Source of the DNA: Escherichia coli
Lineage (GTDB): Bacteria; Pseudomonadota; Gammaproteobacteria; Enterobacterales; Enterobacteriaceae
DNA length: 64,000 bases
Direction: 5' to 3' (one strand)
Assembly (NCBI RefSeq): GCF_013122565.1
Contig: NZ_CP053258.1
This document shows positions 2,453 through 62,708 of the stretch, piece by piece (positions within the stretch are counted from its first letter, which is position 1; each line of letters begins with the position of its first letter). A model generated the notes under the pieces. The model did not search any database and was not told the origin of the DNA. It was given only the letters and a program-made list of their open reading frames with translations. A program made the position numbers and the translations under genes.

Positions 2453-2610
2453 ATTTTCGGTCGCTAACCTAAAAGCAAACGCGCACTATGTCAACTCTTG
2501 AGGTAACGCAATCTGCAACTCGGGGTTGCATCTGGTTGTGGTTACAATGAAAATGAGAAGCATTATTGATGGATTCGCATAAGCGCAATGTGATGGCCTG
2601 CGCCGTTCTG

Positions 2611-2708
2611 CCCCCTCTCCCTTCCAGGGAGAGGGCTGGGGTGAGGGTTAATGCTCGCACCAGTGCTGGCTGTTCCCCTCACCCTCTCCCCAAAGGGGCG
2701 AGGGTACG
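2611..2708. repeat. GC-rich nested inverted repeats in the fepB 5' leader
   Basis: ccctctccc..gggagaggg..gggtgaggg then cccctcaccctctcccc..ggggcgaggg: complementary arms able to form alternative stem-loops; a short burst of high GC within an otherwise AT-rich leader. Confidence 0.45.
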
Positions 2709-2772
2709 GATTGTGCGCTTTGTCGAATTTGTCATTACGCCCTTAACCTTATTAATAACAGGAAGCTGATTT

Positions 2773-5093: not shown

Positions 5094-6098
5094 ATGTCTG
5101 GTTCTGTTGCCGTGACACGCGCCATTGCCGTGCCCGGATTGCTGTTATTACTGATTATCGCGACGGCATTAAGCCTGCTCATTGGGGCAAAATCACTCCC
5201 CGCTTCCGTAGTGCTGGAGGCCTTCTCCGGCACCTGCCAGAGCGCCGACTGCACCATCGTGCTTGACGCGCGACTGCCGCGCACCCTTGCCGGTTTACTG
5301 GCAGGCGGTGCGCTTGGCCTTGCCGGGGCGTTAATGCAAACCCTCACCCGAAACCCACTTGCCGACCCCGGCTTGCTTGGCGTGAACGCCGGAGCCAGCT
5401 TTGCCATTGTGCTGGGTGCGGCGCTGTTTGGTTACTCATCCGCGCAGGAACAACTGGCGATGGCCTTCGCCGGGGCGCTGGTGGCCTCGTTGATTGTTGC
5501 CTTTACCGGCAGCCAGGGCGGCGGGCAGTTAAGCCCGGTGCGTTTAACCCTGGCGGGCGTGGCACTGGCGGCAGTGCTGGAAGGGCTGACCAGCGGCATC
5601 GCCCTGCTCAACCCTGACGTCTACGATCAGTTGCGTTTCTGGCAAGCCGGTTCGCTGGATATTCGCAATCTTCACACCTTAAAAGTAGTACTGATCCCGG
5701 TATTGATTGCCGGAGCAACCGCGCTATTACTGAGCCGCGCGCTGAACAGTCTGAGTCTCGGCAGCGATACCGCAACGGCGCTGGGCAGTCGCGTGGCGCG
5801 CACACAGTTGATTGGTCTGCTGGCGATTACCGTGCTTTGTGGTAGTGCGACGGCGGTAGTTGGCCCGATTGCCTTTATCGGCCTGATGATGCCGCACATG
5901 GCGCGCTGGCTGGTAGGTGCCGATCATCGCTGGTCGCTGCCCGTCACGCTACTTGCTACCCCTGCCCTGCTGCTGTTTGCCGATATCATCGGGCGGGTGA
6001 TTGTGCCCGGTGAACTGCGCGTTTCTGTGGTCAGTGCGTTTATTGGTGCACCGGTGCTAATCTTCCTCGTGCGACGTAAAACGCGAGGTGGCGCATGA
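5094..6098 (+). CDS. fepD: ferric enterobactin ABC transporter permease FepD
   Basis: ORF track 5082..6098 (MEVRMSGS...); start placed at the second ATG (MSGSVAVTRAIAV..., 334 aa); stop overlaps fepG start. Confidence 0.9.
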   Translation: MSGSVAVTRAIAVPGLLLLLIIATALSLLIGAKSLPASVVLEAFSGTCQSADCTIVLDARLPRTLAGLLAGGALGLAGALMQTLTRNPLADPGLLGVNAGASFAIVLGAALFGYSSAQEQLAMAFAGALVASLIVAFTGSQGGGQLSPVRLTLAGVALAAVLEGLTSGIALLNPDVYDQLRFWQAGSLDIRNLHTLKVVLIPVLIAGATALLLSRALNSLSLGSDTATALGSRVARTQLIGLLAITVLCGSATAVVGPIAFIGLMMPHMARWLVGADHRWSLPVTLLATPALLLFADIIGRVIVPGELRVSVVSAFIGAPVLIFLVRRKTRGGA

Positions 6099-7087
6099 TT
6101 TACGTCTCTCGCCGATTAATCATCACCTGTTTGCTGTTGGTTTCCGCCTGTGTGGTTGCAGGTATCTGGGGATTACGCAGCGGTGCCGTCACGCTGGAAA
6201 CCTCGCAGGTATTCGCCGCGCTGATGGGCGATGCGCCGCGCAGTATGACGATGGTGGTCACCGAATGGCGTTTACCACGAGTGCTGATGGCGCTGTTGAT
6301 TGGCGCGGCGCTGAGCGTCAGCGGCGCGATTTTTCAGTCGCTGATGCGTAACCCGCTCGGCAGCCCTGACGTAATGGGCTTTAACACCGGGGCGTGGAGC
6401 GGCGTGCTGGTGGCGATGGTGCTGTTTGGTCAGGATCTGACGGCTATCGCGCTGGCAGCAATGGCGGGCGGCATTGTCACCTCGCTGTTGGTCTGGCTGC
6501 TCGCCTGGCGTAACGGTATCGACACCTTTCGGTTGATTATTATCGGCATCGGCGTTCGCGCCATGCTGGTGGCCTTTAATACCTGGCTGTTGCTGAAAGC
6601 GTCTTTAGAAACGGCGCTAACAGCGGGTTTGTGGAATGCAGGCTCGCTCAACGGCCTGACGTGGGCAAAAATCTCGCCTTCCGCCCCCATCATTATATTG
6701 ATGCTCATTGCCGCTGCCTTACTGGTACGCCGGATGCGCTTGCTGGAGATGGGCGATGATACCGCCTGCGCGCTGGGCGTCAGCGTCGAGCGTTCGCGTC
6801 TGTTAATGATGCTGGTTGCAGTGGTGCTTACCGCTGCGGCAACGGCGCTTGCCGGGCCGATTTCCTTTATTGCTTTAGTCGCGCCGCACATTGCCCGACG
6901 CATTAGCGGCACCGCTCGCTGGGGGCTGACCCAGGCGGCGCTGTGCGGAGCGCTGTTACTGCTGGCGGCCGATCTCTGCGCCCAACAACTGTTTATGCCG
7001 TATCAACTTCCGGTTGGCGTCGTTACCGTCAGCCTCGGCGGTATTTACCTTATCGTCTTGTTAATTCAGGAGTCTCGCAAAAAATGA
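6095..7087 (+). CDS. fepG: ferric enterobactin ABC transporter permease FepG
   Basis: 330-aa membrane ORF MIYVSRRLIITCLLLVSACVVAG...; 4-bp overlaps with fepD upstream and fepC downstream. Confidence 0.93.
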   Translation: MIYVSRRLIITCLLLVSACVVAGIWGLRSGAVTLETSQVFAALMGDAPRSMTMVVTEWRLPRVLMALLIGAALSVSGAIFQSLMRNPLGSPDVMGFNTGAWSGVLVAMVLFGQDLTAIALAAMAGGIVTSLLVWLLAWRNGIDTFRLIIIGIGVRAMLVAFNTWLLLKASLETALTAGLWNAGSLNGLTWAKISPSAPIIILMLIAAALLVRRMRLLEMGDDTACALGVSVERSRLLMMLVAVVLTAAATALAGPISFIALVAPHIARRISGTARWGLTQAALCGALLLLAADLCAQQLFMPYQLPVGVVTVSLGGIYLIVLLIQESRKK

Positions 7088-7899
7088 CCGAATCAGTAGC
7101 CCGTTTGCGCGGCGAACAGTTAACCCTGGGATATGGCAAATATACCGTTGCGGAAAATCTGACTGTAGAAATTCCTGATGGTCACTTCACGGCAATTATC
7201 GGACCAAATGGCTGTGGTAAATCCACGTTACTGCGTACCTTAAGCCGCCTGATGACGCCTGCTCACGGGCATGTCTGGCTGGATGGCGAGCACATTCAAC
7301 ATTACGCCAGTAAAGAAGTTGCACGCCGGATTGGTCTGTTGGCGCAAAATGCCACCACGCCGGGCGATATCACCGTGCAGGAGCTGGTGGCGCGTGGACG
7401 TTATCCGCATCAACCGCTGTTTACCCGCTGGCGCAAAGAGGATGAAGAAGCGGTAACGAAAGCGATGCAGGCCACGGGAATAACTCATCTGGCAGATCAA
7501 AGCGTGGATACCCTTTCTGGCGGACAACGCCAGCGAGCGTGGATCGCGATGGTGCTGGCCCAGGAAACGGCAATTATGCTGCTCGACGAACCCACGACCT
7601 GGCTGGATATCAGTCATCAGATTGATCTACTGGAACTGTTAAGCGAACTGAACCGCGAGAAAGGCTATACCCTGGCGGCGGTGCTGCACGATCTTAATCA
7701 GGCCTGTCGTTACGCCAGCCATTTGATTGCATTGCGGGAAGGGAAAATTGTTGCTCAGGGAGCGCCGAAGGAGATTGTCACTGCTGAACTGATTGAGCGC
7801 ATTTATGGTCTGCGATGCATGATCATTGACGATCCGGTAGCCGGAACGCCGCTTGTGGTGCCGCTCGGACGAACGGCACCTTCAACCGCAAATAGTTAA
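7084..7899 (+). CDS. fepC: ferric enterobactin ABC transporter ATP-binding protein FepC
   Basis: Start at ATG 7084 overlapping the fepG stop (ATGA); Walker A GPNGCGKST and ABC signature LSGGQRQR present. Confidence 0.93.
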   Translation: MTESVARLRGEQLTLGYGKYTVAENLTVEIPDGHFTAIIGPNGCGKSTLLRTLSRLMTPAHGHVWLDGEHIQHYASKEVARRIGLLAQNATTPGDITVQELVARGRYPHQPLFTRWRKEDEEAVTKAMQATGITHLADQSVDTLSGGQRQRAWIAMVLAQETAIMLLDEPTTWLDISHQIDLLELLSELNREKGYTLAAVLHDLNQACRYASHLIALREGKIVAQGAPKEIVTAELIERIYGLRCMIIDDPVAGTPLVVPLGRTAPSTANS

Positions 7900-9029
7900 A
7901 CTAAGTGGTCTGCCATCATGGCATCCTGTTTTCTGGATGCCATCGCATGGCGCAACAGCACACCACCACAAGCCACCATCCCGCCGATCAACGCGGAAAG
8001 GATCACAATAATCGCCTTACCCGGACCGTCTTTTTTCACTGGCAATGACGGGCTTAACTGATATTTAAACGGCGTAAAATTCACATCGTTGACATTTGCT
8101 TTTGTTAATTGCTCGACAAGATACTGACGATTACGTAATTCACCATTCAGTTCCGCAACGTCAGTAACCGCTTTTTCAATTTCCAGTTTGCGTTCAATAC
8201 CGTCTGCGCCGAGAGAAATAGAGAAATCGGGGTCATCTTTAACGGCCTGACCATTACTGTATACGGGCTTTTTAATTCCTGCCGCGTTGGCAATGTCGAG
8301 TGAATAATTGAGGCGCTGAATGTTTGCATCAAGTTGATTTTTCGTTTTAATGCGATCCTGAGCCAGTTTTTCTTTTTCAAACTGGGTTTTGATCTCCAGC
8401 TTATTACGGACGTTTTCTAGCGACTCTTTCACCACCAACGCAGAGATATAATCGATATACCCGCTCAAAACGGTCTGCGCCTCTTCACTGGTTGGCGCGG
8501 TAAAACTTAGCGTCCAGGAGGTATACAGTGACGGTTCATCTTTTTTCTTACTGGCATTGTCATCAACCGCTTTCATTTTTTCGCTCAATGCGACAATTGC
8601 GCGATGCAAATCCAGTTCGTCGATTTTCGCCTCTTTTAATTGGTCCATCACATAAGGTGATGAACGCAGGTACTCTTCCAGCAAGCTAATTGACTGAAAT
8701 TTCTTGATAAACAGATTAAATACACCGCCACGGTCGATATTAACATCGAGATCAAGAACGCGGAGTTTGGTAAAGGTTTTCTCCAGGTCCTGCCACTGAA
8801 TGGCTTCGGCGGGAGTAATGACGGCTGAGCTGGTCCATTTTTGCGGCAGGATGAAAGAGATCAGCAAGCCTGCGCAGGCAAATGCAAAAACGACTGCCAT
8901 GACCGTTTTTTTGGCCCGCCATAAAACTTCGATTAGATTAAGTAAATCAATTTCATTATTACTGGGCGATGCCAGAGGATACTCAGGAAAATGAGCGTCA
9001 CTTCCCTGTTTAATATTCAGTGATGACAT
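7896..9029 (-). CDS. fepE: Wzz-family polysaccharide co-polymerase FepE (O-antigen chain-length regulator)
   Basis: ORF track 7896..9080; start placed at MSSLNIKQGSDAHFPEYPL (377 aa); convergent with fepC with a 4-bp overlap. Confidence 0.9.
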   Translation of the reverse strand: MSSLNIKQGSDAHFPEYPLASPSNNEIDLLNLIEVLWRAKKTVMAVVFAFACAGLLISFILPQKWTSSAVITPAEAIQWQDLEKTFTKLRVLDLDVNIDRGGVFNLFIKKFQSISLLEEYLRSSPYVMDQLKEAKIDELDLHRAIVALSEKMKAVDDNASKKKDEPSLYTSWTLSFTAPTSEEAQTVLSGYIDYISALVVKESLENVRNKLEIKTQFEKEKLAQDRIKTKNQLDANIQRLNYSLDIANAAGIKKPVYSNGQAVKDDPDFSISLGADGIERKLEIEKAVTDVAELNGELRNRQYLVEQLTKANVNDVNFTPFKYQLSPSLPVKKDGPGKAIIVILSALIGGMVACGGVLLRHAMASRKQDAMMADHLV

Positions 9030-9243
9030 GGGTATAACCTGAAAATGAGTCCAATAGGGGAAAATCTCCACGGCGCTCACTTTACCAGTTGGTGAGAATT
9101 ATCCGAAGCTGAAGTTTGTAAATTCCTTCCACTGAATGAAACATTCACTCTATTTAAGAGAAATGACCAACAAACATATAAATTAAATAAATGATTAACC
9201 CATAATTATTTCCTGTAATTATGGGTTAATAGATAATATTAAT

Positions 9244-12200
9244 TTACCTGTTTAGCGTTTCGCGAATAATCGGCCCAATTTTTTCAAACGCCCCTGGAGA
9301 GATAATATCCACATGCGCACAATCCTGACGATAGATATCCAGCCCGGCTATCCACGGCGACCAGGCGCGTTCGGGGCTCATACCTTCCTGAAGCGTACGT
9401 TCAGCAACAAACAGCGTCGCTCTACCATCAAACGGTACGCTATGAGCAGTCGTCAGCAGGCGCACAGCATCAGCGTAGTTGCCTTCAATGGTGGTAAACA
9501 ACTCCGTTGAAGTACTTCCCTGCTGTGCCGCCAGGAAGGCCTCGCGTTCGCGGTTAATCTCCGCCAGCACTTCCGGGTCCAGGCCATTAGCCTCTTTTTC
9601 CTGCCAGTTTTGCGTTTCTGGCGGCCAGGTATCCAGCAAGCCAAGAAATGCCACCTGTTCGCCACGGGCACGCAGTCGCGCCGCAATACCCTGCGCCAGC
9701 GTACCGCCCAGCGAATAACCCAGCAGGTAATAAGGGCCGTGCGGTTGTTGCTCAAGTAACGTTGCCAGATGCGCTTCGCAGACTTCATCCAGATTTGCCG
9801 CGGTCTGCATGGGGCCATTGGGGCGCGGCGACTGAATGCCGATAATCGACCATTGTGGATCGAGATAACGCGAGAGCACGCTGAACTGCCAGGCAAAACC
9901 GGACGCAGGATGGAAACAAAACAGCGTCGGGCCATTACCTTCACGCAACGGCAGAATGGTTTCGAATCCCATGCGCCGGGAGCTGTCCTCTTCACCATCA
10001 ATAATCGTTGCCAGTTTGGCGACGGTTGATGCGACCATCACCTGCCCCGGCGTCACCTGACGGGCAAACTGCCGACTTAACTGCGCTGCCAGTTTCATTG
10101 CCAGTAGCGAATGACCGCCTAGCGCGAAGAAATCAGCATCGGCATCCTGCACGTCACAACCCAGCAACGACGCGAATGCCGCGGCGATAATCGTTTCACT
10201 GCCCGCTTTCGGCGCACGCCCCGGCGCTTGTGCTTTCAGTTCAGGCAACGGTAAGGCTTTGCGATCCAGCTTGCCGTTGGCGCTAAGAGGTAACTGTGGA
10301 AGTTGCAGCAGAACCACGGGCACCATATGTGGTGGCAATGTTTCGCGAAGCTGCGCCTGTAATGCGCTGGTATCCAACGGCAGGCCCGATTGCGACACCA
10401 GATAGCCCACCAACTGACGCGCATCACCACCGGTGGCTGCCGCCTGGTTAATCACACAGGCGTGGGTAACGGCTTGTTCGACACCCGGCAGCGCCTGCAT
10501 CACGCGATCGATTTCGCCCAGTTCGATACGCTGCCCGCGAATTTTTAGCTGATCGTCACTGCGCCCGAGGTATTCCACCGCGCCGTTATCGAGCCAGCGG
10601 GCAACGTCTCCGGTACGGTACATCCGTTCACCTGGGGCAAAAGGATCGGCAATAAAGCGGCTGGCGGTCAGATCGGGTCGTCCAAGATACCCCTGCGCCA
10701 GTTGAATGCCGGTGAGATAGAGATCACCCGCCACACCCGGCGGCACCGGATGCATCATCGCATCGAGAATGCGCAGGCCCGTATTCCACACCGGATAACC
10801 AATCGGCACACTGCTGCCGCGTACCTGTGCCAGTTCCTCGCCAAAGGCCGGATACCAGCTCACATCTACCGCTGCTTCCGTCGGGCCATACAGATTATGC
10901 AACGGCGCGCCGGTTAACTGTTGCCATTCGCGGCATAAATCAGCCGGTAAGGCTTCACCACTACAGAAAACCTGTTTCAACGTCGCGCAACTCTGGCGAG
11001 CGGTTTGCGGCGTCAGCGATGCAACAAATGCCGCCAGCATCGACGGCACAAAGTGCGTGGTCGTTACGCCATATTCGGCAAAGAATTGCTGCATAGCGAG
11101 CGGGTCGCGGTGCGCTTCCGGTTCAGCCATCACCAGTTTCGCCCCGGCAATAAACGGCCAGAAAAACTCCCACACCGAGACATCAAAACTGCACGGCGTT
11201 TTTTGGGCAACGACATCTTCGCCTGTAAGCGGATAATGATTTTGCATCCACAACAGGCGGTTGACGATAGCCGTCTGCCCGACCATTACCCCTTTCGGCC
11301 TGCCGGTGGAGCCAGAGGTAAAGATGATATAAGCCGTGTGATGCGGTTGTGAAAGTTGCAGCGGCGCACTGCCCTGCGGTGTAAGCGGGGCGTTATAGCA
11401 AAGGCTGGTTAAATCTGGAACATCAACAAAGCGCGGCAGTTGATCGTCGGTGGTGATTAACAGCGACGGACGCGCATCTTCCAGCATCATTTTCAGGCGA
11501 TCGTCCGGATAGCCGGTATCCAGCGGTAGCCAGGCCGCACCAGCTTCAACAATCGCATGTAGCGCCAGGGTCAAAAAGACCGAGCGCGGTAATGCCACCG
11601 CCACGCTGTCCCCTGGTTTAACGCCGTGCTCACGCAGCAGATTCGCCAGCGCCACCACCTGCTCGCGCATTTCCCGATAGCTGAACTGGTAACGCGCATC
11701 TGCCAGCGCCGGAGCATCCGGTGTTTTTGCCGCTTGTTCTGCCACCAGCGCGCTAAGCGTGGTTTCTGGAATCTCAACCTGAGTGGCGTTGATCTGCGCC
11801 AGCTGCGCGTATTCACCTGGCAGCATAATATCGACATCGCCGCACAACAGCGCCGGATCCGCGGCGAATTGGGCGATCAGCATTTTCAGGCGTTCAGCAT
11901 GCTGGATTAACGTTGGCTCAGCGTAACGCTGTTTATTGGCGAGGATTTCAATACTCAAATCACCGTGTTCATCCGGGAACAGGGCCAGTTCAAGGTCATT
12001 AACCGGACCGGTTGCCAGGGTATGGGTTTGCGCCTGAACATCAGGAATATCCAGTTGGTAATCAAAGACCTTGATATTGAGTACCGGACCAAACAGGGGT
12101 TCATCACCTGCCGCTCGCCCGCTGTCACGGACAATTTGTTCGGCATCGTAACGTTGATGGCGACGCATTTTTTTCAGTTGAGCCGCCAGTCGGGTTGCCA

Positions 12201-13125
12201 GTTCCGGCAGCGTTTCTTGCGCCGCAATATGAATACCCAACGGCAAAACGTTGAGCACGGGTCCGGTAGCCGTCAGCGCCGCCGAGCCCAGTCGACGCAT
12301 AAAGATAAATCCGGCAGCGTAGTCCATGCGATTGCACAATCGCCCCAGCCACAAAGCCGCCAGCGCAAGGGCTAAATCGGTACGCTGCACACCTGAAAGT
12401 TGCGTAGCCAGCTGGCGGAATTCCCCGTCAGTAAATTCCAGTTTCAGGCGCAGAATATCTGCCGAAGCGCTGCGCCCCGGTAAAGGTGCCGGAGAAAGTG
12501 ACGCGGGCGGCGGCAATTGACGACGCTGTTCCGCCCAGAATGCCGCATCACGCTGCCAGGCTTCGCTTTCGCGATATTGCTGGTACTCTTCCACTACATC
12601 AGCGAAAGGCGTAAACGGCGAAGCAGGCGTTGGTTCGCCACGCAGCCATGCGCAGTAAATATTGGCGATCTGGCGGGTAATGGCCGGGAAACTGAAGCCA
12701 TCGACCAGCAAATGGTGATAACGCTGATACCAGTACCAGCGGTTATCCGCCACCTGTATCAACTGATGAAAGACCAGTGGTTTACCGCTATCGACGCGCA
12801 GATCTTGTTGCAAATCCGCCTGCATTAATGCCTGCGCAGTACCGTGCGGATCAATGTTGGTTCGCAGGTCGATAATTTCTGGCAGTTCGAACGTCAGCGC
12901 ATCATCGACCCACTGCCAGACTTCGCCGTTATCTTCCGTAAAACGCATCCGCAGCGTATCTGCTTGCGCTAATCCGGCAACCACCGCGCGGGCCAGTAAT
13001 GGCGCATCAACCTCTCCGGTTAACTCAACGTAATGCGCCACGCTCCAGGCGGAGGGTAAATCCGACAGTTTTTCTGCCATCCAGATGCCGGGCTGTGCGG
13101 CGACCAAAGGTAAATGCTGGCTCAT
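9244..13125 (-). CDS. entF: enterobactin non-ribosomal peptide synthetase EntF
   Basis: ORF track 9244..13263; start placed at MSQHLPLVAAQPGIW (1293 aa); C-domain motif HHLLVDG, adenylation core TSGSTGRPKG, carrier-protein motif LGGHSL and thioesterase GYSLGG all visible. Confidence 0.95.
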   Translation of the reverse strand: MSQHLPLVAAQPGIWMAEKLSDLPSAWSVAHYVELTGEVDAPLLARAVVAGLAQADTLRMRFTEDNGEVWQWVDDALTFELPEIIDLRTNIDPHGTAQALMQADLQQDLRVDSGKPLVFHQLIQVADNRWYWYQRYHHLLVDGFSFPAITRQIANIYCAWLRGEPTPASPFTPFADVVEEYQQYRESEAWQRDAAFWAEQRRQLPPPASLSPAPLPGRSASADILRLKLEFTDGEFRQLATQLSGVQRTDLALALAALWLGRLCNRMDYAAGFIFMRRLGSAALTATGPVLNVLPLGIHIAAQETLPELATRLAAQLKKMRRHQRYDAEQIVRDSGRAAGDEPLFGPVLNIKVFDYQLDIPDVQAQTHTLATGPVNDLELALFPDEHGDLSIEILANKQRYAEPTLIQHAERLKMLIAQFAADPALLCGDVDIMLPGEYAQLAQINATQVEIPETTLSALVAEQAAKTPDAPALADARYQFSYREMREQVVALANLLREHGVKPGDSVAVALPRSVFLTLALHAIVEAGAAWLPLDTGYPDDRLKMMLEDARPSLLITTDDQLPRFVDVPDLTSLCYNAPLTPQGSAPLQLSQPHHTAYIIFTSGSTGRPKGVMVGQTAIVNRLLWMQNHYPLTGEDVVAQKTPCSFDVSVWEFFWPFIAGAKLVMAEPEAHRDPLAMQQFFAEYGVTTTHFVPSMLAAFVASLTPQTARQSCATLKQVFCSGEALPADLCREWQQLTGAPLHNLYGPTEAAVDVSWYPAFGEELAQVRGSSVPIGYPVWNTGLRILDAMMHPVPPGVAGDLYLTGIQLAQGYLGRPDLTASRFIADPFAPGERMYRTGDVARWLDNGAVEYLGRSDDQLKIRGQRIELGEIDRVMQALPGVEQAVTHACVINQAAATGGDARQLVGYLVSQSGLPLDTSALQAQLRETLPPHMVPVVLLQLPQLPLSANGKLDRKALPLPELKAQAPGRAPKAGSETIIAAAFASLLGCDVQDADADFFALGGHSLLAMKLAAQLSRQFARQVTPGQVMVASTVAKLATIIDGEEDSSRRMGFETILPLREGNGPTLFCFHPASGFAWQFSVLSRYLDPQWSIIGIQSPRPNGPMQTAANLDEVCEAHLATLLEQQPHGPYYLLGYSLGGTLAQGIAARLRARGEQVAFLGLLDTWPPETQNWQEKEANGLDPEVLAEINREREAFLAAQQGSTSTELFTTIEGNYADAVRLLTTAHSVPFDGRATLFVAERTLQEGMSPERAWSPWIAGLDIYRQDCAHVDIISPGAFEKIGPIIRETLNR

Positions 13126-13340
13126 TGTGCCTCCTGCAACTGGGTGAAATTCGACGGTGTCAGAGTACGCCAGTGGGTTTCCAGCCACTGCTGGCAGGAC
13201 GCCTGTGACTGCGGCTGACACACAACGTCCCAGCCTGCCGGTAAGGCGCATTGTTGCGGCCACAGACTGAATTGCCCCTGCGCATTGCGCAAAATGTAAA
13301 ACGCTCCCTGCGGATCATCGAAGGGATTACTGAATGCCAT
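13122..13340 (-). CDS. ybdZ: MbtH-like protein YbdZ
   Basis: 72-aa ORF MAFSNPFDDPQGAFYILRNAQGQFSLWP...; stop overlaps the entF start (ATGA). Confidence 0.85.
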   Translation of the reverse strand: MAFSNPFDDPQGAFYILRNAQGQFSLWPQQCALPAGWDVVCQPQSQASCQQWLETHWRTLTPSNFTQLQEAQ

Positions 13341-13342
13341 AT

Positions 13343-14545
13343 TCAACTCCTGTCATGGAAAAGTGGTTGCCAGAGGTCGATTAGCCCCTGCATCAAGCCA
13401 CCGCGCCAACAAAGCGCATCATGTCCGCCGTCAACCTGACGCCAGAAAATGGATACTTTTATGGGGTGTAATTGCGCATATAGCGCCTGATTGGCCCGCA
13501 TGATCATCGGCTCGCGAATACCCGCTTCCAGCACAATGCGCAGACCTTCGGCGCTAACTTCACCAGCTTTAAGCTTTTCAAGTAACACGCCCTCTTGCTG
13601 CCCGCCCCGGTGCGGCCACCAGTACGATCCTGACTGGCTTAATACACAGCCAAAGCGTTCAGGCCAGTGCAGTCCGGCATACAGCGCGGAAAGCCCACCA
13701 AAACTCTGCCCGGCGACCACGGTGCGATCGGCGCGATCGCTAAAAGGGGCAATAGCTTTCACCAGGGGTAATAACTCTTGCTGTACTGCCAGCCAGAAAT
13801 CCGCATTACACGGCAGTTCGTGGGCGCGATGCGTGGTGTCGATAGCGTCGATCAACACATACACGGCGGGAGGAAGTTGCTGACGATGGGTCAACGAAGT
13901 CAGCGCAGGCCAGACGGGCATACTCTGCGCCCAAAATTCGCCATCAAGCAAAACTGCCAGCGGGCGTTCTTCTGCTGTTGCATCACCGGTGGTAAAAATC
14001 CATACACGGCGTGAATTTTTCAACCGTTCACTTTTCCAGATAATTTCTTTGGCTGGTATTTCTGGCGCTTGCGGACAATCCCATCCCGGTTGCAGAGGCG
14101 CTTGCGGCATTTCGAGTGCAGAAACAGCGTGCCCTCGCCCGCCTTTCCAGCTTTGTGGATTCAGCGGATCGGCTATTGCCTGGGGTAATAGTTTTCGCCA
14201 GCCTTCACGTAATTCGAGGCGATCGGGGGATGGTGCAGAAAAAATGTCATCGCGTTCGGTGGGAATAAAGCAGTAGCTGCCGCGCCAGTTGGCATTGAGT
14301 TGTGTCGTCCACTGCCAGACATCAGTACCTGCAATTCGCTGCATCGACTGGGGCTGGCTGTTCTGATGATGATCGGTCACACCAGTGATGTAGACCCATA
14401 CGCGCTTTATCGTCGAGTATTCTTCAGAACCTTGGGGATCACGCCACCAGAAAGTGACCTCAAACATTTCGTCATTCAGACGCTGCCATTCCGGGCCATG
14501 TTTCGACTGCCACCAGCTCTCACTTCCTACTTTTAACGCCGTCAC
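13343..14545 (-). CDS. fes: enterochelin esterase Fes
   Basis: 400-aa ORF MTALKVGSESWWQSKHGPEWQRL... with GTG start; esterase motif GQSFGG. Confidence 0.9.
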   Translation of the reverse strand: MTALKVGSESWWQSKHGPEWQRLNDEMFEVTFWWRDPQGSEEYSTIKRVWVYITGVTDHHQNSQPQSMQRIAGTDVWQWTTQLNANWRGSYCFIPTERDDIFSAPSPDRLELREGWRKLLPQAIADPLNPQSWKGGRGHAVSALEMPQAPLQPGWDCPQAPEIPAKEIIWKSERLKNSRRVWIFTTGDATAEERPLAVLLDGEFWAQSMPVWPALTSLTHRQQLPPAVYVLIDAIDTTHRAHELPCNADFWLAVQQELLPLVKAIAPFSDRADRTVVAGQSFGGLSALYAGLHWPERFGCVLSQSGSYWWPHRGGQQEGVLLEKLKAGEVSAEGLRIVLEAGIREPMIMRANQALYAQLHPIKVSIFWRQVDGGHDALCWRGGLMQGLIDLWQPLFHDRS

Positions 14546-14593: not shown

Positions 14594-14628
14594 TATTGAT
14601 AATATTATTGATAACTATTTGCATTTGC
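14594..14628. promoter_or_regulatory. Fur box cluster in fes/fepA divergent promoter
   Basis: tgataatattattgataactatttgcatttgcaatag contains tandem overlapping Fur-type hexamers; hand-placed coordinates, +/- a few bp. Confidence 0.6.
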
Positions 14629-17067: not shown

Positions 17068-17164
17068 GCCGGATGCGGCGTGAACGCCTTATCCGGCCTA
17101 CAAAATCTTGCTAATTCAATATATTGCAGGACTACGTAGGCCTGATAAGCGTAGCGCATCAGGC
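17068..17164. repeat. pair of REP elements (BIME-like) downstream of fepA
   Basis: gccggatgcggcgtgaacgccttatccggcctac and gtaggcctgataagcgtagcgcatcaggc are canonical REP palindromes in inverted orientation. Confidence 0.65.
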
Positions 17165-17822: not shown

Positions 17823-17943
17823 TTGACAACATCTGGTACGATTCGCCCGCAGCCATCACTGACCGCGGGCGAAAGTGTAAAGCAGGTGCCCTACCATCCT
17901 GACCTGACAACCGGATATGCGGGGATTGCTCCCCGCACAACGG

Positions 17944-18096
17944 CTACTTCTTCGGTTCGTAAGCGAGAACAGCCTTAAACTCAATATTACGTTCCTTCAC
18001 CGTAAACTCACACAGCGAGTCTCCGACCAGAAGCGTAAATCCCAGTACCGTCAAACACAGCACTATGACTGCCACAAGGGCATATTTCGTCAGCAT
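17944..18096 (-). CDS. hokE: Hok-family type I toxin HokE
   Basis: 50-aa product [50 protein letters not shown]; the 78-aa track ORF is an artefact whose first codons lie inside IS150. Confidence 0.85.
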
Positions 18097-18192
18097 GTTT
18101 ATATTGCCTCCATGCGAAGAAGGGACTACCATCCAAATTGCTAGGTTTGGGTAGGTAGCCCCAGGGTGTACTGACCCCAAAAAGTTGGACAG

Positions 18193-19044
18193 TTAAACAC
18201 GAGGCATATAGGTCTGATTCCGATATTCAATTGGAGTCAGACCTTTTAATTTCAGGCTAATTCTTCTGCTGTTGTAGTATTCAATATATTCCGTAACAGC
18301 ATCCTTCAGTTCGCTTATATTACTGAACTCATCAAGATAAAAACACTCCGACTTTAAGGTTCCAAAGAAACACTCCACCACAGCATTATCCAGACAATTG
18401 CCTTTTCTGGACATGCTTTGTTTAATACCATGTTCTTTAAGGATATTTTGATATCTTCTCATACGATACTGCCATCCCTGGTCAGAGTGCAGAACAGGAT
18501 GCTCGTGAGGATTAAGCTTTTTGAATGCCTGATCGAGCATATTCTCAACCATGTTCATCACTGGTCTTTCCGAAAGGCTGTAAGAAATAACTTCATTGTT
18601 GAAGAGATCTATTACTGGAGACAAATACAGCTTGCGCCCATTGACTGCAAATTCAGTAACATCGGTAACCCACTTCTCGTTTGGCCGCGTAGCCTTGAAA
18701 TCTCTTTGGAGAACATTGGGGGCGGTTTGCCCTACCTCTCCTCTGTAAGAGCGGTATCGCTTGACCTTAATCGCTGCCTTAAGTGAGAGGGTTCCCATCA
18801 GGCGCTGAACAGCTTTATGGTTAATCTGTTTCCCTTCTCGATGAAGAGACAGCGTTACCCTACGGTATCCGTATCGGCCTCTATTCTCATGATAAATCTC
18901 ACCAATACGCTTTTTAACGTCCGCATACTTGTCAGGCTTGCTGAGAGCCTTTAGATGGTAATAAAACGTACTGCGCGGTATCTCCGCAGCCCTGAGAAGC
19001 TCATCAAGAGGATAAAACTGCCTTAGCTCGTTGAGTACTTTCAC
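18193..19044 (-). CDS. insK: IS150 transposase OrfB (InsK)
   Basis: 283-aa [34 protein letters not shown]... with integrase-core region; overlaps the insJ 3' end as expected for a frameshift-fused IS3 transposase. Confidence 0.9.
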
Positions 19045-19562
19045 TTTTTCGTGGGATGAGCTAAGGCTTTCAGCTTTTTTAGATACACAAGCCGCGTTTC
19101 AAGAAATCGAACTTGCCTTTCAAGATCCTCAATGCGTCGGTCTTTTGACAGCTCCAATGCTGATGCCGCTTTTTCTGGATCAACTGATATTGCAATGTTT
19201 CTTTTGGTGCCAATCTTGAGCGCGCGTAAACCAGCTTCTCCGCGCTCTTCATAAACCTTCAGCCACCTGGCTACAGAACCACTACCAGCAAGCATAAAGT
19301 GAGCAGCAGCCTGATTAAGGGACATGTGCTGCTCGATCACAGCTTTCACGACCTTAATACGCAACTCTGGATCAGCACTAACACCTTTAGGTTTGGGAAT
19401 TAAACCTTTTTCTCCATGTTTTTCATAGAGGGCAACCCATGTCCTGACCTGGGTTCGGGGGACACCAAAACGTGCCGAGATGATCCTGTAACCATCATCA
19501 GTAGTGAAGTAGTGATTCACGACTTCAAGGCGCTTTTCAAAAGGGTATTTTGGCTTTGACAT
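19041..19562 (-). CDS. insJ: IS150 transposase OrfA (InsJ)
   Basis: 173-aa ORF MSKPKYPFEKRLEVVNHYFTTDDGYRIISARFGVPRTQV... (helix-turn-helix N-terminus). Confidence 0.9.
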   Translation of the reverse strand: MSKPKYPFEKRLEVVNHYFTTDDGYRIISARFGVPRTQVRTWVALYEKHGEKGLIPKPKGVSADPELRIKVVKAVIEQHMSLNQAAAHFMLAGSGSVARWLKVYEERGEAGLRALKIGTKRNIAISVDPEKAASALELSKDRRIEDLERQVRFLETRLVYLKKLKALAHPTKK

Positions 19563-19984
19563 ATCAGGGGCTATTCCATTTCATCGTCCAACAAAATGGG
19601 TGCAGTACAGGGTTGATAGAAATATCTCCTGGGGCTTCATCTTTCCAGACCTCAGAGTAAACCTGAAACCGGAAAGCTTCAGGCACCCGCCGTTATCTTA
19701 CCCTTCCTCAACAAAATAGCTGTTTATTTATACAGTGAGTCCTGTTTCGGACTTCTCACTCCCCATTTGATCAACTGAAGCTGAACCCGTTTTTTTCTGC
19801 ATGCCGCAATCGTCAAAATTCTTCGCCACCAGCCAGCCGTGCCATAACTTGTCACATTGCAAAAGTAGCCAAATTGCTTCAGGCACCATCAGTTCACCAT
19901 CACCAAAAAAAAGAAACATTCCAGAACTTCCGCATCTCGCCCAGCCGCTCCGACTTCTATACTGAATAGAAAACGCCAACATAA

Positions 19985-21112
<1,128 letters not shown>

Positions 21113-40330: not shown

Positions 40331-41092
40331 ATGCAATTGAGCAGCAGTGAACCTTGCGTGGTGATCCTGACCGAAAAAGAGGTAGAGGTAAGCGTCAATA
40401 ACCATGCTACGTTTACCCTTCCGAAAAACTACCTGGCCGCCTTCGCGTGCAACAATAACGTCATTGAACTCTCAACGTTAAATCACGTATTAATCACCCA
40501 CATCAACCGTAACATCATCAACGATTATCTGTTGTTTTTAAATAAGAACTTAACCTGTGTAAAGCCCTGGTCGCGGCTGGCTACCCCGGTTATCGCTTGT
40601 CATAGCCGTACACCGGAAGTGTTCCGGCTAGCCGCCAACCACAGCAAGCAGCAACCCAGCAAACCCTGCGAAGCGGAGTTGACGCGCGCATTGCTTTTTA
40701 CCGTATTGTCTAACTTTCTTGAGCAATCGCGGTTTATTGCCCTACTGATGTATATCTTACGCAGCAGCGTCCGCGACAGCGTCTGCCGCATTATTCAAAG
40801 CGATATTCAGCATTACTGGAATCTGCGAATTGTCGCCAGTTCGCTATGTTTAAGCCCCAGCCTGCTCAAAAAGAAATTAAAAAACGAAAATACCAGCTAT
40901 AGCCAGATTGTCACAGAGTGTCGTATGCGTTACGCCGTACAGATGTTATTGATGGATAACAAAAATATCACTCAGGTGGCGCAATTATGTGGCTATAGCA
41001 GCACGTCGTACTTTATCTCTGTTTTTAAGGCGTTTTACGGCCTGACACCGTTGAATTATCTCGCCAAACAGCGACAAAAAGTGATGTGGTGA
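40331..41092 (+). CDS. envY: AraC-family regulator EnvY
   Basis: 253-aa ORF MQLSSSEPCVVILTEKEVEVSVNNHATF... with C-terminal AraC-type HTH (..ITQVAQLCGYSSTSYFISVFKAFYGLTP); AT-rich gene. Confidence 0.82.
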   Translation: MQLSSSEPCVVILTEKEVEVSVNNHATFTLPKNYLAAFACNNNVIELSTLNHVLITHINRNIINDYLLFLNKNLTCVKPWSRLATPVIACHSRTPEVFRLAANHSKQQPSKPCEAELTRALLFTVLSNFLEQSRFIALLMYILRSSVRDSVCRIIQSDIQHYWNLRIVASSLCLSPSLLKKKLKNENTSYSQIVTECRMRYAVQMLLMDNKNITQVAQLCGYSSTSYFISVFKAFYGLTPLNYLAKQRQKVMW

Positions 41093-41137: not shown

Positions 41138-41214
41138 TGGCGCGCCCTGCAGGATTCGAACCTGCGGCCCACGACTTAGAAGGTCGTTGCTCTATCCAAC
41201 TGAGCTAAGGGCGC
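41138..41214 (-). tRNA. argU: tRNA-Arg (anticodon UCU)
   Basis: Minus strand reads GCGCCCTTAGCTCAGTTGGATAGAGCAACGACCTTCTAAGTCGTGGGCCGCAGGTTCGAATCCTGCAGGGCGCGCCA: 7-bp acceptor stem, TCT anticodon in the CTTCTAAG loop, GGTTCGAATCC T-arm, encoded CCA. Confidence 0.92.
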
Positions 41215-41456
41215 GTTGATACCGCAATGCGGTGTAATCGCGTGAATTATACGGTCAACCCTTGCTGAGTCAATGGCTTTTGATCTGGTTGCTGAACAAG
41301 TGAACGACCGCGTCTGATTTTCTGATTTATTTCGCTATAGCGGCAAACAAATGCACACCGCTGCGCGTCTGAATCAAGAAAACCCGTATTTTCATGTATC
41401 AAAGTACAATTTACCGCCCTAACGGAAAATTGTCCGCTCCTATGAGACTGGTAACT

Positions 41457-42089
41457 ATGAAACCAACGTCGGTGATCATTATGGATACTCATCCTATCAT
41501 CAGAATGTCTATTGAAGTTCTGTTGCAAAAAAACAGTGAATTGCAGATTGTCCTGAAAACGGATGATTACCGCATAACCATCGATTATCTCCGAACCCGT
41601 CCTGTTGATTTAATCATTATGGATATAGACTTGCCCGGAACAGACGGTTTTACCTTCCTGAAAAGGATCAAACAAATCCAGAGCACAGTGAAAGTGTTAT
41701 TTTTATCATCGAAATCAGAATGCTTTTATGCTGGCAGAGCGATACAAGCTGGTGCTAACGGTTTTGTCAGTAAATGCAATGATCAGAATGATATTTTTCA
41801 TGCCGTTCAGATGATCCTCTCCGGATACACGTTTTTTCCCAGCGAAACGCTTAACTATATAAAAAGCAATAAATGTAGTACGAATAGTTCAACGGTCACT
41901 GTGCTATCTAATCGTGAAGTGACCATATTACGTTATCTAGTTAGCGGATTATCTAATAAAGAAATTGCCGATAAGTTATTACTTAGTAATAAAACAGTTA
42001 GTGCGCATAAATCTAATATTTATGGCAAGCTAGGTTTGCATTCAATTGTAGAGCTTATCGACTACGCCAAATTATACGAATTAATATAA
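41457..42089 (+). CDS. fimZ: LuxR-family response regulator FimZ (SfmZ)
   Basis: ORF track 41394..42089; start placed at MKPTSVIIMDTHPIIRMSIEVLL (210 aa); receiver domain plus C-terminal LuxR HTH. Confidence 0.88.
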   Translation: MKPTSVIIMDTHPIIRMSIEVLLQKNSELQIVLKTDDYRITIDYLRTRPVDLIIMDIDLPGTDGFTFLKRIKQIQSTVKVLFLSSKSECFYAGRAIQAGANGFVSKCNDQNDIFHAVQMILSGYTFFPSETLNYIKSNKCSTNSSTVTVLSNREVTILRYLVSGLSNKEIADKLLLSNKTVSAHKSNIYGKLGLHSIVELIDYAKLYELI

Positions 42090-62631: not shown

Positions 62632-62673
62632 GTCCTACCACTCGCCTGATTATTTTTAGCTATGTTGGATTTT

Positions 62674-62700
62674 GCCACGGTTTATACCGTGGCTTTTTTT
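62674..62700 (+). terminator. rho-independent terminator of the allD-allC-allE transcript
   Basis: gccacgg-tttata-ccgtggc followed by tttttt; itself flanked by inverted repeats gctatgttg / caacatagc. Confidence 0.65.
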
Positions 62701-62708
62701 GCAACATA

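What the first reader, a model, noticed from the sequence alone, without database searches (positions are those of the whole stretch)
13122..13345. ybdZ (MbtH-like) is wedged between fes and entF with overlapping start/stop codons
The 72-codon gene starts 2 nt after the fes stop and its stop overlaps the entF start (ATGA), implying translational coupling of the MbtH-like partner to the NRPS it is expected to chaperone.
Basis: partly seen in the sequence, partly recalled or inferred. Interest (0 to 1): 0.2.

Follow-up and report, generated by a model that had tools for sequence, protein, structure and literature searches.

The report
ybdZ between fes and entF
This is the well-known small helper gene ybdZ sitting directly in front of the enterobactin synthetase gene entF in Escherichia coli, joined by the commonest kind of start/stop overlap in bacteria, so the layout is real but ordinary.

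Summary
After a 2-nt spacer, ybdZ (72 codons) runs 13340-13122. Its TGA shares ATGA (13125-13122) with the entF start. RefSeq annotates the same layout, and 5,412 of 5,426 complete E. coli genomes hold the stretch. YbdZ is an MbtH-like protein (Pfam 77 bits), 68/72 identical to the YbdZ crystallised on EntF (PDB 5JA1).

The geometry is not special. fepD/fepG and fepG/fepC in this window also use ATGA, and this "-4" spacing is the commonest in prokaryotes.

In 38 other Enterobacteriaceae species the order fes-ybdZ-entF always holds. The ybdZ/entF junction is always overlapping or at most 10 nt apart: 23 at -4, 7 at -8, 1 with a 1-nt gap, 8 with 9-10-nt gaps (window included). The 2-nt fes/ybdZ gap is Escherichia-only.

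The entF Shine-Dalgarno (AGGAGG) lies in the last ybdZ codons, whose amino acids vary. No conserved RNA structure hides the entF start.

Translational coupling is plausible, probably partial and by termination-reinitiation, but nothing here shows it and no paper found tests it. Already known; low interest.

The parts
13343..14545 (-). fes (enterochelin esterase), 400 aa, GTG start, TGA stop at 13345-13343
   Evidence: Translation; Pfam Enterochelin_N and Esterase; RefSeq annotates the same span in E. coli NRZ14408.
13347..13351 (-). Shine-Dalgarno AGGAG for ybdZ, inside the last fes codons, 6 nt before the ybdZ ATG
   Evidence: Direct reading. A GGAG core 6-7 nt upstream of the ATG is present in all 39 loci. 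Duplex energies are -5.8 to -9.8 kcal/mol.
13341..13342 (-). 2-nt spacer (AT) between the fes stop and the ybdZ start
   Evidence: The 2-nt gap occurs only in the six Escherichia loci including the window; it is 10-30 nt in the other 33 species.
13122..13340 (-). ybdZ, 72 codons plus TGA; MbtH-like protein
   Evidence: Pfam PF03621, 77.1 bits against a cut-off of 27; 68/72 identical to PDB 5JA1 chain B; RefSeq name 'enterobactin biosynthesis protein YbdZ'.
13130..13135 (-). Shine-Dalgarno AGGAGG for entF, inside ybdZ codons 69-71, 4 nt before the entF ATG
   Evidence: -10.3 kcal/mol, in the 2.6th percentile of intragenic background windows. CAGGAGG is invariant in six Escherichia species while neighbouring codons change amino acid.
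13122..13125 (-). ATGA: entF start codon (13125-13123) overlapping the ybdZ stop codon (13124-13122)
   Evidence: The same NTGA overlap is found in 23 of 39 loci.
9244..13125 (-). entF, 1293 aa NRPS termination module (C-A-T-TE)
   Evidence: Translation; Pfam Condensation, AMP-binding, PP-binding and Thioesterase. The N-terminus aligns from residue 1 with crystallised EntF, 5JA1 chain A.
13344..13346 (-). In-frame TTG two codons upstream of the ybdZ ATG, forming TTGA with the fes stop (alternative 74-aa ORF); judged not to be the start
   Evidence: No spacer separates it from the SD. It is present only in Escherichia and C. sedlakii, whereas the ATG is invariant.
14598..14616 (+). AT-rich GATAAT-like hexamer array (GATAATATTATTGATAACT) in the divergent fes/fepA intergenic region; candidate Fur site for the operon promoter
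   Evidence: The match to the 19-bp Fur consensus is weak: this array has 7 mismatches, and the best 19-mer in the region (14610-14628) has 6. Fur control of fes-ybdZ-entF-fepE is taken from the literature (PMC8910356).
9194..9230 (-). Perfect 15-bp inverted repeat with a T-rich tail, 14 nt after the entF stop (terminator-like), in the 214-nt spacer before fepE
7896..9029 (-). fepE (wzz-type chain-length determinant), last gene of the annotated unit
   Evidence: Pfam Wzz; RefSeq span transferred by the constant offset to the window.

Best explanation
This is the canonical Escherichia coli enterobactin unit fes-ybdZ-entF(-fepE).

ybdZ encodes a 72-residue MbtH-like protein. It binds the adenylation domain of the NRPS EntF and raises its activity. 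This is established for the near-identical K-12 protein; it is not shown here.

The three genes read in one direction from the iron-regulated promoter upstream of fes. The Shine-Dalgarno sequence of each downstream gene is embedded in the last codons of the gene before it.

A ribosome finishing ybdZ stops on UGA within AUGA, directly on the entF start and just downstream of AGGAGG. The most likely behaviour (inferred) is that part of entF initiation comes from these terminating ribosomes by termination-reinitiation. That would tie EntF output to YbdZ output and make both proteins at the same place.

The entF ribosome-binding site also looks able to recruit free 30S subunits, so the coupling is probably partial rather than obligatory.

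The last approximately 5 residues of YbdZ are best read as the translated entF ribosome-binding site rather than a functional part of the protein.
For: Identity:
- Pfam MbtH, 77.1 bits.
- 68/72 identity to YbdZ in the EntF-YbdZ crystal structure 5JA1.
- The EntF N-terminus matches 5JA1 chain A from residue 1.
- The same annotation and spacing appear in RefSeq, and 5,412 of 5,426 complete E. coli genomes hold at least 80% of the 701-nt stretch.

Function (literature):
- Deleting ybdZ abolishes enterobactin production; YbdZ enhances EntF solubility and catalysis; MLP-A-domain complexes are optimal at 1:1 (PMC7593251).
- Structures are reviewed in PMC10510592.
- fes-ybdZ-entF-fepE is listed as one Fur-repressed unit (PMC8910356).

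Geometry:
- ATGA at 13125-13122, and AGGAGG 4 nt upstream at -10.3 kcal/mol.

Conservation:
- All 38 other Enterobacteriaceae species loci keep the order fes-ybdZ-entF.
- The ybdZ/entF junction is never more than 10 nt apart: 23 at -4, 7 at -8, 1 with a 1-nt gap, 8 of the form TAAGGAG(N6-7)ATG, counting the window.
- -4 and -8 are among the spacings enriched in spatially coupled ORFs (PMC12548453).
- YbdZ is conserved to about residue 66, then varies in length and sequence, while a purine-rich SD persists.

Precedent and transcription:
- 4 of 5 native E. coli -4 pairs were translationally coupled, mostly SD-dependent (PMC6728339).
- The consensus scan found no sigma-70-like promoter and no terminator-like site on the minus strand between the fes start and the entF start.
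Against: - No experiment or dataset reached here measures entF translation with ybdZ translation blocked.
- The -4 overlap is the default compact arrangement and recurs twice more in this window, so it is weak evidence on its own.
- The entF start region is less structured than 198 of 200 shuffles, and no conserved structure masks it. Together with the strong SD, this favours efficient independent initiation.
- One of their five pairs (bioBF) was uncoupled.
- Non-cognate MLPs can replace YbdZ in its absence (PMC7593251), so production of YbdZ in cis is not required for function.
- RNA fold-changes along the unit are -5.04 (fes), -4.96 (ybdZ), -3.10 (entF) and -1.69 (fepE) (PMC8910356). entF mRNA does not track ybdZ mRNA perfectly.
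Confidence: 0.7

Rival explanations
1. The overlap is only genome compaction and mutational ease. entF is translated essentially independently from its own strong ribosome-binding site, and ybdZ translation has little effect on it.
For: - -4 is the commonest spacing and 'easy to evolve' (PMC12548453).
- It recurs at fepD/G and fepG/C in the same window.
- The entF SD is AGGAGG at -10.3 kcal/mol, with an AUG start.
- The local fold is weaker than 198 of 200 shuffles, and there is no conserved occluding structure.
- The bioBF precedent shows an uncoupled -4 pair.
- Eight related species have a 9-10-nt gap with TAAGGAG, a classic stand-alone RBS.
Against: - 4 of 5 tested native E. coli -4 pairs were coupled.
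- The junction never drifts beyond 10 nt in 39 species, whereas the fes/ybdZ gap ranges from 2 to 30 nt.
- The seven -8 loci have weaker SDs (-5.2 to -9.5 kcal/mol), and there reinitiation would help most.
Confidence: 0.27
2. Coupling works by RNA unfolding. A structure in the ybdZ coding region sequesters the entF SD, and only a ribosome translating ybdZ opens it.
For: In the 121-nt fold of the window sequence, the entF SD (GCAGGAGGC) pairs with GCGUCCUGC, about 65 nt upstream within ybdZ (first fold, -34.2 kcal/mol).
Against: - That fold is no more stable than shuffles (z = +0.67; 154 of 200 shuffles fold at least as well).
- In 23 aligned -4 loci the consensus structure has only -5.1 kcal/mol, a covariation term of 0.09, and no pair touching the SD or AUG.
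Confidence: 0.03
3. ybdZ really starts at the TTG at 13346-13344. This gives a 74-aa protein whose start overlaps the fes stop as TTGA, a second -4 overlap.
For: The TTG is in frame, and the ORF listing reports the ORF as 13122-13346. TTGA fits the NTGA motif.
Against: - The TTG abuts the AGGAG with no spacer, while the ATG has the optimal 6 nt.
- The ATG is invariant in 39 loci. The TTG exists only in Escherichia and C. sedlakii, and in C. sedlakii fes stops 30 nt earlier.
- RefSeq and the crystallised protein both start at MAFS.
Confidence: 0.02

Closest known systems
E. coli K-12 ybdZ / entF (fes-ybdZ-entF-fepE unit; EntF-YbdZ complex, PDB 5JA1)
   Same: - Same genes, order, spacing and annotation.
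- YbdZ is 68/72 identical, and the first 100 residues of EntF differ at 2 positions.
   Different: - Only allelic differences: V32A, I39V, A55T and T63S in YbdZ.
- The 701-nt stretch is 99.1% identical at best to complete E. coli genomes, and 95-99% to most.
Experimentally tested native E. coli -4 (AUGA) gene pairs: hyfHI, astDB, ydbH/ynbE, menDH (coupled) and bioBF (not coupled), Huber et al. 2019, PMC6728339
   Same: A co-directional 4-nt start/stop overlap with an SD inside the upstream gene.
   Different: ybdZ-entF has not been tested. It lacks a supported local structure that would block de novo initiation.
Natural MbtH-NRPS fusions: SlgN1 (N-terminal MLP fused to an A domain, PDB 4GR4/4GR5) and ObiF1 (C-terminal MLP domain, PDB 6N8E)
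   Same: The same MbtH fold partner is kept at fixed 1:1 dosage with its NRPS. Both appear as homologues of this YbdZ and are described in PMC10510592.
   Different: Here the two are separate polypeptides joined only at the level of the mRNA. EntF starts with a condensation domain, so a simple read-through fusion would not place YbdZ next to the A domain.
Other stand-alone MbtH-like proteins (M. tuberculosis MbtH 2KHR, P. aeruginosa PA2412 2PST)
   Same: The same Pfam family and size. PA2412 can substitute for YbdZ in enterobactin synthesis (PMC7593251).
   Different: Sequence similarity is remote (E = 2e-15 and 4e-06). From my own knowledge, not tested here, those genes are not placed immediately upstream of and overlapping their partner NRPS gene.

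Membership tests
MbtH-like protein (Pfam PF03621) | Match to the family profile above the curated cut-off | tested here: met
   77.1 bits against a gathering score of 27, E = 6.8e-22, residues 4-54 on profile positions 2-52 of 53.
MbtH-like protein (Pfam PF03621) | Conserved Trp/Pro signature (S-x-W-P ... P-x-G-W ... W) | tested here: met
   W27-P28, P34, G36-W37 and W52 are invariant, and W57 is at least 90% conserved, in 39 aligned orthologues.
MbtH-like protein (Pfam PF03621) | Small (about 70 aa) stand-alone protein encoded in an NRPS gene cluster | tested here: met
   72 aa, directly upstream of the C-A-T-TE NRPS entF.
MbtH-like protein (Pfam PF03621) | Binds an NRPS adenylation domain and enhances adenylation | not testable with these tools
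   Shown for the 94%-identical K-12 protein: the 5JA1 complex, with biochemistry summarised in PMC7593251.
Translationally coupled gene pair (termination-reinitiation type) | Co-directional neighbours with overlapping or near-abutting stop and start codons | tested here: met
   ATGA at 13125-13122. Conserved as -4, -8 or a gap of at most 10 nt in 39 of 39 loci.
Translationally coupled gene pair (termination-reinitiation type) | SD for the downstream gene inside the 3' end of the upstream gene | tested here: met
   AGGAGG at 13135-13130, -10.3 kcal/mol.
Translationally coupled gene pair (termination-reinitiation type) | Both genes on one transcript, with no promoter or terminator between them | tested here: inconclusive
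   The consensus scan finds none on the minus strand between 14545 and 13125, and the literature lists one unit. But consensus scans are weak, and the entF RNA fold-change differs from that of ybdZ.
Translationally coupled gene pair (termination-reinitiation type) | Translation of the downstream gene falls when translation of the upstream gene is stopped early | not testable with these tools
   No published test was found.
Translationally coupled gene pair (RNA-unfolding type) | Stable, conserved structure occluding the downstream RBS | tested here: not met
   z = +0.67 and +1.81 against shuffles. The alignment fold gives -5.1 kcal/mol, covariation 0.09, and no pairs at the SD or AUG.
E. coli enterobactin fes-ybdZ-entF-fepE unit | Gene content and order, divergent from fepA-entD | tested here: met
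E. coli enterobactin fes-ybdZ-entF-fepE unit | Fur box in the fes/fepA intergenic region | tested here: inconclusive
   The best 19-mer has 6 mismatches to the consensus. A GATAAT-like hexamer array lies at 14598-14616.

The most novel reading that the evidence does not exclude
The ybdZ/entF junction never drifts beyond 10 nt in 39 Enterobacteriaceae species, yet it switches between -4, -8 and short-gap forms. This could reflect selection for coupled, co-localised synthesis: YbdZ would be made in fixed proportion to EntF from the same mRNA and loaded onto the nascent EntF adenylation domain. On that reading the YbdZ C-terminal tail is simply the translated entF ribosome-binding site. Gene adjacency, not only co-regulation, would then matter quantitatively for MLP-dependent NRPS activity.
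Probability: 0.25. Interest if true: 0.35.

Novelty: already known. Interest (0 to 1): 0.1.

Why it matters
It matters little as a discovery. The gene, its partner, the complex structure and the operon are all textbook for E. coli.

There is modest practical value. Anyone deleting or tagging ybdZ must preserve its last ~15 nt, because they carry the entF Shine-Dalgarno and start codon. Transposon or cassette phenotypes in ybdZ may therefore be partly polar or translational effects on entF.

If coupling were shown to set a 1:1 YbdZ:EntF output, it would be a tidy example for designing MLP-NRPS co-expression in heterologous hosts.

Tried and rejected
1. RNA-unfolding coupling. The single-sequence fold pairs the entF SD with upstream ybdZ sequence, but it is no better than shuffles. 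The 23-sequence alignment gives no conserved structure. Rejected.

2. TTG at 13346 as the ybdZ start (a TTGA overlap with fes). Rejected on SD spacing and conservation.

3. The upstream GTG at 13263 that the ORF listing gives for the entF frame (1339 aa). Rejected. The open frame upstream varies from -263 to +3 between species, while the ATG at the overlap is conserved and matches the crystallised protein.

4. Internal promoters between fes and entF. The consensus scan found none on the minus strand, which is not decisive.

5. Fur box by the 19-bp consensus. There is no match at 3 or fewer mismatches in the fes/fepA spacer, only a hexamer array.

6. Quantitative expression data:
- Li et al. 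2014 is not held.
- The supplements of an E. coli ribosome-profiling paper hold no ybdZ, entF or fes rows.
- The primary YbdZ papers (Felnagle 2010; Schomer 2017 and 2018; Miller 2016) and Pettis & McIntosh 1987 are not held.

7. NCBIfam has no HMM for YbdZ.

8. SD energies computed with a longer anti-SD string raised the background. SD strength is therefore clear for Escherichia entF (2.6th percentile) but only moderate for the ybdZ SD (5.3rd percentile).
Full report
**Observation**

The genes lie on the minus strand. Reading the reverse complement:
- fes ends ...GAC AGG AGT TGA, with its stop at 13345-13343.
- Two bases (AT, 13342-13341) follow.
- ybdZ starts at ATG 13340-13338 and translates to 72 residues plus a stop, ending ...CAG GAG GCA CAA TGA at 13124-13122.
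- The entF ATG is at 13125-13123, so the four bases ATGA (13125-13122) hold the entF start and the ybdZ stop.

fes is 400 aa from a GTG at 14545. entF is 1293 aa.

Its end coordinate, 13345, includes the spacer and the fes stop codon.

**Identity**

- Pfam assigns the 72-aa product to MbtH (PF03621, 77.1 bits against a cut-off of 27).
- fes matches Enterochelin_N plus Esterase, and entF matches Condensation, AMP-binding, PP-binding and Thioesterase.
- The product is 68/72 identical to YbdZ in PDB 5JA1 chain B, the EntF-YbdZ complex.
- The EntF N-terminus aligns from residue 1 with 5JA1 chain A.
- A 701-nt query across the junctions matches 5,414 of 5,426 complete E. coli genomes, 5,412 of them over at least 80% of the query. 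The best identity is 99.1%, and most are 95-99%.
- RefSeq annotates fes, ybdZ and entF with exactly this spacing.

The window is thus an E. coli enterobactin locus from a less commonly sequenced lineage.

**Is the geometry more than chance?**

It is real but not unusual.
- In the window itself, fepD/fepG (ATGA at 6095-6098) and fepG/fepC (7084-7087) have the same overlap.
- In 50 kb of annotated E. coli around the locus, 3 of 15 closely spaced co-directional pairs are -4 overlaps.
- entA/entH also has a 2-nt gap.
- A 2025 review calls NTGA '-4' spacing by far the commonest motif across prokaryotes. [quoted passage not shown]

**Comparative anatomy**

A scan of one genome per species returned 40 loci. 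Of these, 38 were long enough to analyse, all from Enterobacteriaceae. Every one keeps the order fes, ybdZ, entF.

Counting the window, the ybdZ/entF junction falls into four forms:

| Form | Loci |
|---|---|
| NTGA (-4) | 23 |
| ATGAnTRA (-8) | 7 |
| TGAtATG (1-nt gap) | 1 |
| TAAGGAG(N6-7)ATG (9-10-nt gap) | 8 |

It is never wider than 10 nt. By contrast, the fes/ybdZ gap is 2 nt only in the six Escherichia loci and 10-30 nt elsewhere. The tight fes/ybdZ junction is therefore a recent Escherichia feature, caused by fes reading on across the ybdZ Shine-Dalgarno.

The ybdZ ATG and a GGAG core 6-7 nt upstream are present in every locus. The in-frame TTG at 13346, which would form TTGA with the fes stop, is present only in Escherichia and C. 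sedlakii and has no spacer after the SD. It is not the start.

**The tail of YbdZ**

The protein alignment is well conserved to about residue 66 and then varies in length (67-73 aa) and sequence.
- In the short forms the stop is followed at once by GGAG.
- In the long forms the same purine-rich stretch is translated.
- Within Escherichia the core CAGGAGG and CAATGA are invariant, while the flanking codons change amino acid (L/Q/P at residue 68, A/V at residue 71).

I infer that the last few residues are the translated entF ribosome-binding site and carry little protein-level constraint. The entF SD in the window, AGGAGG 4 nt before the AUG, gives -10.3 kcal/mol, within the strongest 2.6% of intragenic background windows.

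**RNA structure**

- The 71-nt windows centred on both start codons fold less well than 198 of 200 shuffles (z = +1.8).
- A longer fold pairs the entF SD with upstream ybdZ sequence, but it is no better than shuffles (z = +0.67).
- Across 23 aligned -4 loci the consensus structure is -5.1 kcal/mol with a covariation term of 0.09, and no pair touches the SD or AUG.

The RNA-unfolding model of coupling therefore has no support. The entF start looks accessible to free ribosomes.

**Transcription**

- The consensus scan finds no sigma-70-like promoter or terminator-like site on the minus strand between the fes start and the entF start. This is weak evidence.
- The literature lists fes-ybdZ-entF-fepE as one Fur-repressed unit (PMC8910356).
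- In that data set the RNA log2 changes are -5.04 (fes), -4.96 (ybdZ), -3.10 (entF) and -1.69 (fepE). fes and ybdZ move together while entF and fepE move less. This could reflect the length of entF, internal starts, or the hairpin after entF.
- The fes/fepA spacer has a GATAAT-like hexamer array (14598-14616) but no good match to the 19-bp Fur consensus.

**Function from the literature**

- As summarised in PMC7593251, deleting ybdZ abolishes enterobactin production.
- EntF is soluble without YbdZ, but its solubility and catalytic activity are enhanced by it.
- MLP-A-domain complexes work best at 1:1.
- Non-cognate MLPs such as PA2412 and MXAN_3118 can replace YbdZ in its absence.
- EntF structures with and without YbdZ show no large change in the A domain (PMC10510592).
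- ybdZ is induced about 200-fold by iron restriction in Salmonella Paratyphi A (PMC11176087).

'Chaperone' is therefore only part of the picture.

**Coupling: what is shown and what is inferred**

Shown here:
- the geometry;
- the embedded SD;
- conservation of a junction of at most 10 nt;
- the lack of an occluding structure.

From the literature:
- 4 of 5 native E. coli -4 pairs were coupled, usually SD-dependent, and one (bioBF) was not (PMC6728339).

Inferred:
- partial termination-reinitiation at AUGA, on top of independent initiation.

I put about 0.6-0.7 on a measurable dependence of entF translation on ybdZ translation. I put about 0.3 on essentially independent initiation.

No paper in the searchable library tests or states ybdZ-entF coupling.

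**Verdict**

The feature is already known and ordinary. Interest is low.

The only mildly new points are three:
- the junction stays within 10 nt through three different geometries across the family;
- the 2-nt fes/ybdZ gap is specific to Escherichia;
- the YbdZ tail is best read as translated RBS.

Noticed in passing
window 9194-9230 (-): A perfect 15-bp inverted repeat (ATTAACCCATAATTA / TAATTATGGGTTAAT) with a 7-nt loop and a T-rich tail. It begins 14 nt after the entF stop, inside the 214-nt entF-fepE spacer. It looks like a terminator or processing hairpin and may explain why fepE RNA tracks the operon least.
   Followed up: partly
window 2563-2742: A 180-bp insertion relative to E. coli NRZ14408 in the entC-fepB intergenic region. 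It is made of G/C-rich imperfect palindromic units (CCCTCTCCC...GGGAGAGGG...GGGGTGAGGG), resembling a small intergenic repeat element.
   Followed up: partly
window 18193-19044 (-), 19533-19688 (-): An IS3-family transposase OrfB (rve, HTH_21) lies between entD and a sok antitoxin RNA hit. The window diverges from NRZ14408 here; the offset changes at about 17900-20000.
   Followed up: partly
window 41138-41214 (-): A tRNA-Arg(TCT) lies between an AraC-type regulator (40331-41092) and a LuxR-type response regulator (41394-42089), with no integrase or prophage-sized insertion beside it in the ORF list. From my own knowledge, K-12 carries the DLP12 prophage at this tRNA.
   Followed up: no
window 17102-17143 (+): An Rfam hit to the ES036 (CssrF) sRNA lies in the fepA-entD spacer (47.3 bits against a gathering score of 37.6). 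STnc480 also hits at 62638-62704.
   Followed up: no
L007 (whole, 223 bp); L026 5001-5198: A 223-bp scaffold labelled Lactobacillus johnsonii ATCC 33200 encodes a 92%-identical YbdZ. An assembly labelled Chryseobacterium sp. 18061 carries a full Enterobacteriaceae fes-ybdZ-entF locus. These are probably contamination or mislabelling in public assemblies.
   Followed up: no
window 13344-13346 (-): A TTG in frame with ybdZ forms TTGA with the fes stop, a second potential -4 motif. It is restricted to Escherichia and C. sedlakii and is judged not to be used.
   Followed up: yes
L012, L013, L015, L016, L040 (ybdZ 3' ends, about 5190-5213): The Leclercia and Silvania loci replace the GGAG-type entF SD with AGGTGA. 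This pairs with a different part of the 16S 3' end: -3.8 kcal/mol with the short anti-SD string and -8.4 with the extended one. The -4 overlap is kept.
   Followed up: partly
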